Below are positions 15,607 through 16,473 of a stretch of 64,000 bases of DNA, in pieces. The notes beneath the pieces are model-generated. The model was not told where the DNA came from and did not search any database. It saw only the letters and a list, made by a program, of their open reading frames with translations. Location: assembly GCF_009914755.1 (NCBI RefSeq), contig NC_060926.1. One strand, given 5' to 3'. Made by a program: the position numbers and the translations under genes. Origin of the DNA: the human T2T-CHM13v2.0 reference genome, Homo sapiens. Each line of letters opens with the position of its first letter. The stretch's first letter is position 1.

Positions 15607-16473
15607 GATTTCCTGTTCCCTCTGTTGTGTCTTGGAGTCTGGAATGATGAAGACCTTGTGCTCTTAGGCAGGTCCTTCCTCTTTATTATTTTAGAATTCT
15701 TCTGGACTCACCCCAACAATAGTTTCAACGTGTTCTGATGATTGGTTGTTAGTCAGAATGAAAATAAGGCCCTTTGATAACAACATGGAAGCTAGAATTG
15801 GTGACATAGATCTGGAAGATAACTTGTCATATAACATGTTTGCTCTCATTTAACTATGAGTTTATTTCCTGCCACTTCTTCTGGGACCAAGAAAATGATG
15901 TTCCAAAGAAATGACATTGCCACATTATTGGAGATCAGTTACAGACCAATGTTGGATACTACCAATGAATTTTCAGTGGTTTGCTTTGTGAAGAAACTCA
16001 AATTCCCATCTGTGATACATTTTGGAATGAGTGGGTTCGATGCCAGCACATTGAAAGATATCCCTCAAAAAACAAAAGGACAAGAGTCATCAGCTCCCAC
16101 ACGAAGTAAAAAATGTGAACCTAATTTTAGCAGTGTTAATAAAGAGCAACTATCCATGAGTCACTGCATCAACAATCCCTGTGTTAGAACATCCTCTCTT
16201 ACCTAAGGCACAGGGGTAAGTGATACATACTTGTCTGAGACCAGTTTCATTAATACTGTTGTTGGTTGTATGTGTCCATAGATGAGTAGCAGTATCTGTT
16301 ACCAGTTTCACTATCTTTTGGAGTTTTGGATAACGTAACTATGCTGTGATATTTACACTTTTTAATGAATTAATTTTAAGTAAAATTGCCATTCTAACTT
16401 TGTATGTGAAATAAAGTTCATACATAATAAAGCTTGCTTATAAAAAATAAAAATAAGATACAAGTTTTTTAAA
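15607..16473 (+). pseudogene. OOSP4B: Processed pseudogene of an oocyte-secreted PLAC1/OOSP-family ZP-N gene (OOSP4B-like)
   Basis: Stitched across frameshifts from ATG 15644/15647: [167 protein letters not shown]. This is colinear with OOSP4B as recalled. No introns; AATAAA at 16410 and 16426; A-rich tail from 16440; TSD 15344-15360/16474-16490. The symbol names the inferred parent, not this locus. Confidence 0.85.

What the first reader, a model, noticed from the sequence alone, without database searches (positions are those of the whole stretch)
15607..16473. Hidden processed pseudogene of an oocyte-secreted ZP-N gene (OOSP4B-like) nested inside a Tigger1
Seen: ~870 bp of non-repeat sequence inside Tigger1, ending in AATAAA x2 and an A-rich tail, within a 17-bp TSD (aaggaaagtgatttctt / aaagaaagtggtttctt). 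Across about 4 frameshifts it encodes CSDDWLLV...DIDLEDNC...YEF..PATSSG...VVCFVK. Established knowledge: this is the PLAC1/OOSP ZP-N pattern (CSxDW, C, CG, C); Cys1, 2 and 4 survive and Cys3 is Ser. The C-terminal part (ORF 15856-16206) is colinear with OOSP4B as I recall it. Inference: an oocyte-restricted mRNA was retrotransposed, implying L1 trans-activity in the female germline or early embryo. It could be unannotated because it lies between repeat-masked blocks and the ORF track shows only half of it.
Basis: partly seen in the sequence, partly recalled or inferred. Interest (0 to 1): 0.85.

Follow-up and report, generated by a model that had tools for sequence, protein, structure and literature searches.

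The report
Dead OOSP4B retrocopy fused to L1
This is a dead, intron-free copy of the egg-cell gene OOSP4B that a LINE-1 element pasted into an old DNA transposon tens of millions of years ago; it is an ordinary kind of pseudogene, except that its front end is joined directly to a short LINE-1 tail piece.

Summary
Window 15608-16442 matches a five-exon gene on chr11 (G000:C11:59968641-59982373). All four GT-AG introns are removed exactly, with 85% identity to the spliced mRNA. The parent's 178-aa ORF matches nr 'oocyte-secreted protein 4B [Pan paniscus]' at 156 of 160 aligned residues.

The copy has two AATAAA signals, an A-rich tail, four frameshifting indels, premature stops and Cys3>Ser. It is one of seven OOSP4B retrocopies in CHM13.

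The 17-bp target-site duplication is real (15344-15360 and 16474-16490). In 14 of 14 other copies of the flanking Tigger-type transposon the site is single and continuous.

That piece stops at the exact natural L1 terminus and joins the near-full-length cDNA with no poly(A) between them.

The L1 piece and the cDNA are equally diverged: 7.4% and 8.0%.

I favour one retrotransposition event with a template jump from the mRNA 5' end to an L1 RNA (about 0.5). The main rival is a nested second insertion (about 0.3). Cross-species alignment would decide.

This is an ordinary class with a modest twist: low to moderate interest.

The parts
15080..15343 (+). Left flank: old pogo/Tigger-type DNA transposon, the host of the insertion. 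The element extends further left to at least about 14124.
   Evidence: 2260 first-look genomic matches. In 14 of 14 fetched copies the sequence runs straight on into the right flank. Pfam DDE_1 scores 30.4 bits (cut-off 22) at 14756-14935 (+). CENP-B_N is below cut-off at 14124-14276. The window's private divergence over both flanks is 71/580 = 12.2%.
15344..15360 (.). Left copy of the target-site duplication (aaggaaagtgatttctt).
   Evidence: The site is single-copy in 14 of 14 related elements. 15 of 17 bases match the right copy.
15361..15607 (+). 5'-truncated L1 3'-terminal fragment. It ends at the natural L1 3' terminus (...gttgaag) and has no poly(A).
   Evidence: 5540 first-look matches, with the 39 scored non-self matches 82-87% identical. 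In 29 of 29 fetched copies the same terminal motif (gttgaag, or a gttg variant) is followed directly by an A- or purine-rich tail. Private divergence is 18/243 = 7.4%. The name 'L1' is from my recall of the 3' UTR, not from a repeat library.
15608..16442 (+). Intronless, disabled copy of OOSP4B mRNA. The 5' UTR is 15608-15646. The coding remnant runs from the parental ATG at 15647 to the ancestral-frame stop at 16204-16206. The 3' UTR is 16207-16442, with AATAAA at 16410 and 16426.
   Evidence: Five-block spliced match to G000:C11:59968641-59982373. GT-AG introns are precisely absent. There are 696 matches, 123 mismatches and 28 gap columns against the spliced mRNA. Indels are listed. The copy starts 3 nt inside the 5' end (GCC) shared by four other full-length copies.
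16443..16473 (+). A-rich tail containing an unexplained non-A island: GATACAAG at 16457-16464, then T6.
   Evidence: See the notebook entry under 'unexplained'.
16474..16490 (.). Right copy of the target-site duplication (aaagaaagtggtttctt).
16491..16800 (+). Right flank: continuation of the same DNA transposon.
   Evidence: 12 of 14 copies align from window 16474-16479 onward and overlap the end of the left-flank alignment by the TSD length. The other two align from 16503 and 16517.

Best explanation
An OOSP4B mRNA was reverse-transcribed by the LINE-1 machinery and inserted in + orientation into an older Tigger-type DNA transposon. The mRNA was the five-exon isoform with the long form of exon 1. 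The copy has decayed since insertion and has no function (this part: probability about 0.97).

Proposed mechanism for the whole 1113-bp insert (probability about 0.5), with shown and inferred steps marked:
1. The L1 endonuclease nicked the bottom strand at the left edge of the duplicated 17-mer, reading 5'-CTTTCCTT/GATC-3' on the bottom strand. This is inferred from the position of the TSD.
2. The T-rich 3' end primed on the mRNA poly(A) tail. This is inferred.
3. Reverse transcription ran to within 3 nt of the mRNA 5' end. This is shown by comparison with four other full-length copies.
4. The enzyme then jumped to the 3' end of an L1 RNA at the body/poly(A) boundary, copied 246 nt and aborted. 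The jump is inferred. The sequence shows direct fusion in the same orientation, with at most 1 nt (A) of overlap.
5. The composite was joined to the upstream target, giving a single TSD. The single TSD is shown.

Private divergence of about 8% suggests insertion roughly 35-55 Myr ago. The substitution rate used is recalled, not calibrated here.
For: Retrocopy:
- Spliced five-block match with introns precisely missing.
- The parent ORF is intact and matches bonobo OOSP4B at 156 of 160 aligned residues.
- The poly(A) signals and tail sit at the parent's 3' end.
- The TSD is confirmed against 14 of 14 empty-site homologues.
- The copy carries disabling indels and stops.

Single event:
- One TSD encloses both parts.
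- The L1 piece ends exactly where 29 of 29 other copies begin their tail, yet no tail is present here.
- Four other full-length retrocopies, each with its own TSD, start at GCC+ATTTC, so the cDNA here is essentially full-length at the junction.
- No second TSD surrounds the cDNA. No copy of the L1-terminal 11-mer with 2 or fewer substitutions lies in the 1505 nt downstream. A truly nested Alu at the same L1 position on chr9 does have one.
- The L1 piece and the cDNA are equally diverged, 18/243 against 65/817 (Fisher p=0.89). The host transposon is older, 71/580 (p=0.0045).
- Chimeric retrocopies that are directly fused, in the same orientation and flanked by a TSD are a described product of LINE template switching (PMC2104539, Background read; PMC4476161, passages read).
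Against: - Equal divergence does not exclude two insertions close in time.
- A jump to the 3' end of a polyadenylated L1 RNA should carry A residues into the junction. None is present, apart from possibly the single A at 15608.
- In the literature I read, the 5' part of such chimeras is a full-length cellular RNA and the L1 is the 3' part (PMC2104539; PMC13174262 catalogues only X/L1 chimeras). This polarity is therefore not a described class.
- The L1 terminus carries a perfect endonuclease site, TTTT/AA on the bottom strand of cttAAAAg, 11 nt before its end. A nested insertion there with a typical TSD length would also abut the L1 body end. The chr9 Alu shows this does happen.
- The tail contains ACAAGTT, a weak echo of the L1-terminal AAAAGTT.
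- No other primate genome could be examined.
Confidence: 0.5

Rival explanations
1. Two independent insertions. A 5'-truncated L1 fragment with a short poly(A) tail inserted first and created the 17-bp TSD. Later the OOSP4B cDNA inserted at the L1 body/tail boundary. That second event either left no target-site duplication (a blunt or deleting event) or left one that was later scrambled.
For: L1 3' ends and tails are natural endonuclease targets. The motif cttAAAAg 11 nt before the L1 end is a consensus site (sequence). At G000:C9:84551351 a 5'-truncated Alu abuts the same L1 terminal base and has a recognisable second TSD after its tail, AAAAGTTAAAA at +258. The window tail contains ACAAGTT followed by A6 at the place where such a second TSD and a residual L1 tail would sit. 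The equal divergence of the two parts is compatible with two events close in time.
Against: The candidate second TSD matches only 6 of 11 bases, with four consecutive differences. At about 8% divergence, roughly one change would be expected. The 8-mer similarity is reached by 2428 of 5000 shuffled tails. No A residues lie between the L1 body and the cDNA. A TSD-less insertion exactly at that base is a coincidence.
Confidence: 0.32
2. 3' transduction. An active L1 elsewhere had an OOSP4B retrocopy immediately downstream. A read-through transcript ending at the retrocopy's poly(A) signal was retrotransposed here and 5'-truncated within the L1.
For: It explains a single TSD, the shared orientation, and the use of the OOSP4B poly(A) signal.
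Against: None of the six other OOSP4B retrocopies has an L1 3' end upstream within the 1.5-kb flanks I fetched. No L1 abuts exon 1 of the parent gene; the nearest match is about 3.9 kb upstream. The source locus would itself need the same tail-less L1/cDNA junction, so this explanation only moves the problem elsewhere.
Confidence: 0.05
3. The copy is a functional retrogene or a DNA-level duplicate of OOSP4B, not a dead retrocopy.
For: A 123-codon frame (15835-16206) remains open. Database ORF predictions with 98% identity to it exist (P0001).
Against: The introns are absent. The N-terminal half, which holds the signal peptide and Cys1-2, is broken by four frameshifts and two stops, and Cys3 is lost. 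Substitutions accumulate at the same level as in the other six copies and the L1 piece. No gene is annotated here in the RefSeq table supplied with the finding.
Confidence: 0.01

Closest known systems
L1-mediated processed pseudogenes (retrocopies) of germline-expressed genes
   Same: The copy is intronless, starts at the transcript 5' end, and ends in poly(A) after AATAAA. It has a 17-bp TSD at a pyrimidine/purine nick site, lies on a different chromosome from the parent, and its frame has decayed. Thousands exist in the human genome: 8,000-17,000 retrocopies according to the abstract of PMC4314676 (search listing).
   Different: The TSD also contains a 246-bp L1 3' fragment fused head-on to the cDNA without poly(A).
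Bipartite chimeric retrocopies made by LINE template switching or RNA ligation: U6/L1, U3/L1, Alu/L1, mRNA/L1 (PMC2104539 Background; PMC4476161 and PMC13174262 passages; PMC6789731 abstract in the search listing only)
   Same: Two different transcripts are directly fused in the same orientation, with no poly(A) between them and one TSD around both.
   Different: In the described classes the L1 (or the mRNA) is the 3' part, truncated at a random point, and the 5' part is a full-length small RNA. Here the polarity is reversed. The mRNA is the primed 3' part and is nearly complete. The L1 is the 5' part, 5'-truncated, and begins at its exact 3' terminus.
Nested insertion at the L1 3'-terminal endonuclease site, for example the Alu at G000:C9:84551351
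   Same: A foreign retrocopy abuts the last base of the L1 body in the same orientation.
   Different: The chr9 case shows a second TSD (the L1-terminal 11-mer with 2 substitutions) after the Alu tail. The window shows none at that stringency.
PLAC1/OOSP family of ZP-N-only secreted proteins (PMC1479692)
   Same: The parent protein has an N-terminal hydrophobic leader. It has four Cys in the order C(SDDW)...C...CG...C within about 85 residues. It shows weak similarity to a single-exon chrX locus (28% identity, E=5e-6) and to two neighbouring chr11 loci.
   Different: The window copy cannot encode the domain. The Pfam ZP-N score of the intact relatives stays below the curated cut-off.

Membership tests
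Processed pseudogene (L1-mediated retrocopy) | Colinear with the spliced mRNA of a multi-exon parent, with introns absent exactly at exon junctions | tested here: met
   Five blocks on G000:C11 have GT-AG borders, and the window is continuous across all four junctions.
Processed pseudogene (L1-mediated retrocopy) | Poly(A) tail at the parent's polyadenylation site, downstream of AATAAA | tested here: met
   AATAAA lies at 16410 and 16426. The parent genomic match ends at ...AAAGCTTGC, and the window continues into an A-rich tail.
Processed pseudogene (L1-mediated retrocopy) | Target-site duplication flanking the insert, with an empty site in homologous sequence | tested here: met
   The 17-mer is duplicated (15 of 17 identical), and it is single in 14 of 14 related transposon copies. 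The TSD encloses the L1 fragment as well.
Processed pseudogene (L1-mediated retrocopy) | Loss of coding capacity | tested here: met
   Four frameshifting indels, TGG>TAG, an early stop in the shifted frame, and Cys3>Ser.
OOSP4B (identity of the parent gene) | Orthology to a protein named OOSP4B | tested here: met
   The conceptual parent protein (178 aa) matches nr 'oocyte-secreted protein 4B [Pan paniscus]' (P0013) at 156 of 160 aligned residues. The 18-residue gap corresponds to an alternative exon-1 donor. It is the only multi-exon locus of this similarity in CHM13. The name comes from the database label. No human annotation of chr11 was available.
PLAC1/OOSP ZP-N-only family | Four conserved Cys of ZP-N | tested here: met
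   The parent has all four. In the window, the codons for Cys1, Cys2 and Cys4 survive and Cys3 is Ser. The family definition comes from PMC1479692.
PLAC1/OOSP ZP-N-only family | Significant profile match to ZP-N | tested here: inconclusive
   PF23344 gives E=0.006-0.015 and 16-17.4 bits against a cut-off of 24.7, in 3 of 4 relatives. There was no hit for the three window ORF pieces.
PLAC1/OOSP ZP-N-only family | ZP-N fold (immunoglobulin-like) | tested here: inconclusive
   The AlphaFold2 model of P0013 from a 7-sequence alignment had mean pLDDT 29, so no fold search was run.
Template-switch chimeric retrocopy (features listed in PMC2104539) | Two transcripts directly joined in the same orientation and flanked by one pair of direct repeats | tested here: met
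Template-switch chimeric retrocopy (features listed in PMC2104539) | The 5' part is a full-length copy of a cellular RNA, and the 3' part is 5'-truncated at a random site | tested here: not met
   The 5' part is only the last 246 nt of an L1. The 3' part lacks only 3 nt.
Template-switch chimeric retrocopy | Both parts arrive at the same time in evolution | not testable with these tools
   Only divergence could be compared: 7.4% against 8.0%, p=0.89. No other primate genome is held.
L1 3' transduction | The sequence after the L1 is the genomic flank of a source L1 | tested here: not met
   The sequence after the L1 is a spliced cDNA. None of the six other copies, nor the parent's exon 1, has an adjoining L1 3' end.
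Tigger/pogo DNA transposon (host element) | Remnants of a pogo-type transposase (DDE_1, CENP-B-like N-terminal domain) | tested here: met
   DDE_1 scores 30.4 bits (cut-off 22). CENP-B_N scores 16.9 bits, below its cut-off of 21.2. The subfamily name 'Tigger1' was not testable because no repeat library is held.

The most novel reading that the evidence does not exclude
The insert is a single-event, reversed-polarity chimera. An L1 reverse transcriptase primed on an oocyte mRNA, ran to its 5' end, and then jumped end-to-end onto the non-adenylated 3' terminus of an L1 RNA. That would be physical evidence that an L1 ribonucleoprotein and OOSP4B mRNA shared one reaction in a cell of the female germline or a very early embryo about 40 Myr ago. 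It would also define an 'L1-3'end::mRNA' class missing from current catalogues, which search only for sequence fused 5' of a 3'-terminal L1.
Probability: 0.45. Interest if true: 0.5.

Novelty: new member of a known kind. Interest (0 to 1): 0.3.

Why it matters
On its own this adds one more dead retrocopy to a genome that holds thousands, so it matters little. Three points have modest value.

1. OOSP4B, detected in human oocytes (PMC13063650, passage read), has left at least seven retrocopies representing three splice isoforms. This fits repeated L1 action on maternal transcripts. The copies also preserve the ancestral mRNA: a long exon 1, a cassette exon, and a C-terminal frame since lost in the human/bonobo gene.

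2. The tail-less L1::cDNA junction inside one TSD may be an example of a template jump in the direction opposite to the catalogued U6/L1-type chimeras.

3. RefSeq annotates nothing here, so the copy may be worth adding to pseudogene tracks.

Tried and rejected
- Pfam on the three longest window ORF pieces gave no family.
- phmmer of bonobo OOSP4B against PDB sequences gave only marginal hits (E 0.04-1.4) to arenavirus GP2 and others. I treat these as noise.
- The AlphaFold2 model of OOSP4B had pLDDT 29 and was unusable, so no fold search was made.
- Rfam over 15300-16520 gave one chance-level match, E=0.79.
- A second TSD around the cDNA alone was not supported.
- I surveyed tail-less L1 ends to judge how common such junctions are. 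There are 203 exact 17-mers, and 6 lack an A-run after them. Among the five besides the window: one is a nested Alu, one has a variant tail, one is unresolved, and two are not in an L1 3' UTR context.
- A shorter pattern gave 71 hits against 51 in the reversed control, so it was mostly chance. One small follow-up locus on chr5 was a chance hit.
- The original 2003 catalogue of human chimeric retrogenes is not in the searchable library. I therefore cannot say whether an L1-5'/mRNA-3' chimera was ever listed there.
- Only one paper in the library mentions OOSP4B and one mentions OOSP4A, neither in connection with retrocopies.
- No supplements were opened. Table S5 of PMC13174262 might list related mRNA/L1 chimeras.

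Full report
**What is in the sequence**

Window 15300-16900 was read directly and all stop-to-stop frames were listed. CSDDWLLV and DIDLEDN lie in frame 15695-15853. NYEF lies in frame 15810-15914. PATSSG and VVCFVK lie in the 123-codon open frame 15835-16206.

Two AATAAA hexamers lie at 16410-16415 and 16426-16431. An A-rich stretch follows them and runs to 16473. The 17-mer aaggaaagtgatttctt at 15344-15360 recurs as aaagaaagtggtttctt at 16474-16490.

**The parent gene**

A search of the window's own assembly with 15607-16440 gave five separate blocks on G000:C11 between 59968641 and 59982373, on the + strand. Together they tile the query from base 2 to base 831 at 81-88% identity (re-aligned). 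Each block is bounded by canonical GT...AG, and the window runs through all four junctions without intron sequence.

The spliced parent mRNA (828 nt) aligns to the window with 696 matches, 123 mismatches and 28 gap columns. It carries an intact 178-codon ORF with a hydrophobic N-terminus and four cysteines in the order C(SDDW)...(DN)C...(S)CG...(VV)C.

A protein search with the window's open frame returned primate proteins labelled 'oocyte-secreted protein 4B' or '4B-like'. The bonobo protein matches the conceptual human parent at 156 of 160 aligned residues. The only gap, 18 residues, corresponds to an alternative donor inside exon 1.

A six-frame search of the genome with the bonobo protein found no second multi-exon locus of comparable similarity. 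It found only distant relatives at 28-35% identity: one on chrX, two on chr11 and one on chr7. The parent is therefore the human OOSP4B ortholog. The name rests on the database label.

**Family assignment**

The four-Cys pattern agrees with the ZP-N-only PLAC1/Oosp family described in PMC1479692 (abstract and passages read). Pfam's ZP-N model hits 3 of 4 intact relatives, but below its curated cut-off (16-17.4 bits against 24.7). It does not hit the window fragments. A structure prediction was too poor to use (pLDDT 29). The ZP-N assignment is thus plausible but was not independently established here.

**Decay of the copy**

Relative to the parent CDS, the window has a -1 indel at 15657, -5 at 15680, +1 at 15824 and -2 at 15867. 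It also has a TGG>TAG change and an early stop in the shifted frame. The Cys3 codon reads TCT.

The fifth indel, -1 at 16159, is not a lesion. All seven retrocopies lack that base, and the gibbon and Aotus proteins read in the window's frame. The human/bonobo gene therefore carries a derived 1-nt insertion that shortens its C-terminus.

**A family of retrocopies**

CHM13 holds at least seven intronless OOSP4B copies:
- the window copy on chr2;
- chr8:25551607;
- chr6:76921117;
- chr12:95861573;
- chr4:125115794;
- chr8:47543369, which is 5'-truncated;
- chr21:18388297, which is 5'-truncated and interrupted by a 299-bp block.

Four other full-length copies each have their own TSD and begin at GCC followed by ATTTC, which matches the parent's genomic sequence. 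That position marks the transcript 5' end.

The copies record three isoforms. The five-exon form is in the window, chr8a and chr6. The chr12 copy has an extra block of about 96 nt that is 92% identical to chr11 intron 1 at 59972747-59972839. The chr4 copy joins exon 1 directly to exon 4. All use the long form of exon 1, unlike the three database protein models.

Private divergence from the column majority is 5.6-9.1% for the well-covered copies. It is 8.0% (65/817) for the window and 7.2% for the parent itself.

**The insertion site**

The left flank has 2260 first-look matches in the genome. In all 14 fetched homologues the left and right flanks are contiguous and carry the 17-mer once. The duplication is therefore a true TSD.

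The host element encodes DDE_1 and, below cut-off, CENP-B_N remnants upstream. That fits a pogo/Tigger transposon. The subfamily could not be named.

The TSD encloses 15361-16473, not only the cDNA. Bases 15362-15607 are a high-copy repeat, with 5540 first-look candidates and the 39 scored non-self matches at 82-87% identity. From recall, I recognise this repeat as the 3' UTR end of a primate L1.

In 29 of 29 fetched copies the same terminal motif is followed directly by an A- or purine-rich tail. In the window the motif ends at 15607, and the next base is the cDNA (ATTTCC...), 3 nt inside the transcript start. There is no poly(A) between the two parts.

The L1 piece is not part of the parent transcript. 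No L1 3' end adjoins chr11 exon 1 or any of the other six copies.

**Single event or nested insertion?**

Evidence for one event:
- One TSD surrounds both parts.
- There is no tail between them.
- No second TSD surrounds the cDNA. No copy of the L1-terminal 11-mer with 2 or fewer substitutions lies downstream. The best 8-mer echo is reached by 2428 of 5000 shuffled tails.
- The two parts are equally old, 18/243 against 65/817 (p=0.89). The host transposon is older, 71/580 (p=0.0045).

Evidence against one event:
- The L1 terminus contains a consensus endonuclease site 11 nt before its end. A nested insertion with an ordinary TSD length would land at the same boundary.
- This does occur. Among 203 exact copies of the terminal 17-mer, six lack an A-run. 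One of them, on chr9, is a 5'-truncated Alu abutting the same base, with a recognisable second TSD after its tail.
- The window tail contains an unexplained island, GATACAAG-T6-A6. It weakly echoes both the L1 terminus and the bases just 5' of the left TSD (note).

I put a single event with a template jump at about 0.5, a nested insertion without a surviving second TSD at about 0.3, 3' transduction at about 0.05, and leave the rest open.

**Comparison with known chimeras**

Chimeric retrocopies made by LINE template switching are directly fused, in the same orientation and flanked by a TSD (PMC2104539 Background; PMC4476161 passages). In those descriptions the 5' part is a full-length small or cellular RNA and the 3' part is a randomly truncated L1 or mRNA.

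The recent catalogue in PMC13174262 (outline and passages) looks only for sequence fused 5' of an L1. The window shows the opposite polarity. If it arose in one event, it would be a variant of the known mechanism, not a member of the described classes.

**Verdict**

The object is an ordinary, old, dead processed pseudogene of OOSP4B. The L1 junction and the retrocopy family are modestly interesting extras. Comparative genomics is needed to settle how the junction arose.

Noticed in passing
G000:C11:59982089-59982373 (parent exon 5), compared with window about 16159: Human OOSP4B, like the bonobo protein, carries a 1-nt insertion near the end of the CDS. All seven retrocopies lack it, and the gibbon and Aotus proteins read in the other frame. 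The modern hominine C-terminus (...SKKSLYQ) is therefore derived and shorter than the ancestral one.
   Followed up: yes
L004 (G000:C12:95861573-95862492), and L011 8747-8839 = G000:C11:59972747-59972839: The chr12 retrocopy holds an extra block of about 96 nt between exons 1 and 2. It is 92% identical to a stretch of OOSP4B intron 1 that is followed by GT. It is probably a cassette exon of an old isoform. The present human sequence shows no AG immediately upstream.
   Followed up: partly
L006 (G000:C4:125115794-125116341): The chr4 retrocopy joins exon 1 directly to exon 4, which points to an exon 2-3 skipping isoform.
   Followed up: partly
Window 15608-15716 and the equivalent exon 1 of the parent (L011 4641-4755): All full-length retrocopies contain a long exon 1 that encodes a longer hydrophobic leader. 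The three database models (bonobo, gibbon, Aotus) use an internal donor (CTTAG|GT) that removes 18 codons.
   Followed up: partly
Window 16457-16476: A non-A island, GATACAAG + T6 + A6, sits inside the poly(A) tail. GATACAAG resembles GATCAAG at 15340-15346, so the TSD could be 21 nt long with a filler in the right copy. This is unexplained.
   Followed up: partly
G000:C9:84551351 (L061): A 5'-truncated Alu abuts the last base of an L1 3' end, and a second copy of the L1-terminal 11-mer (2 substitutions) follows the Alu tail. This is a clear nested insertion at the L1's own terminal endonuclease site.
   Followed up: partly
G000:C8:28492489 (L060): Another L1 3' end of the same subfamily has no A-run after its terminal base and is followed by unidentified sequence. 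I did not resolve what it is.
   Followed up: no
G000:C21:18388297-18389016 (L007): The chr21 OOSP4B retrocopy is 5'-truncated and interrupted by a 299-bp block of unidentified sequence.
   Followed up: no
Protein P0020: This 170-aa database ORF, reported from 222 contigs, reads through OOSP4B intron 3 into exon 4. It appears to be an ORF call on primate genomic DNA, not a real protein.
   Followed up: no
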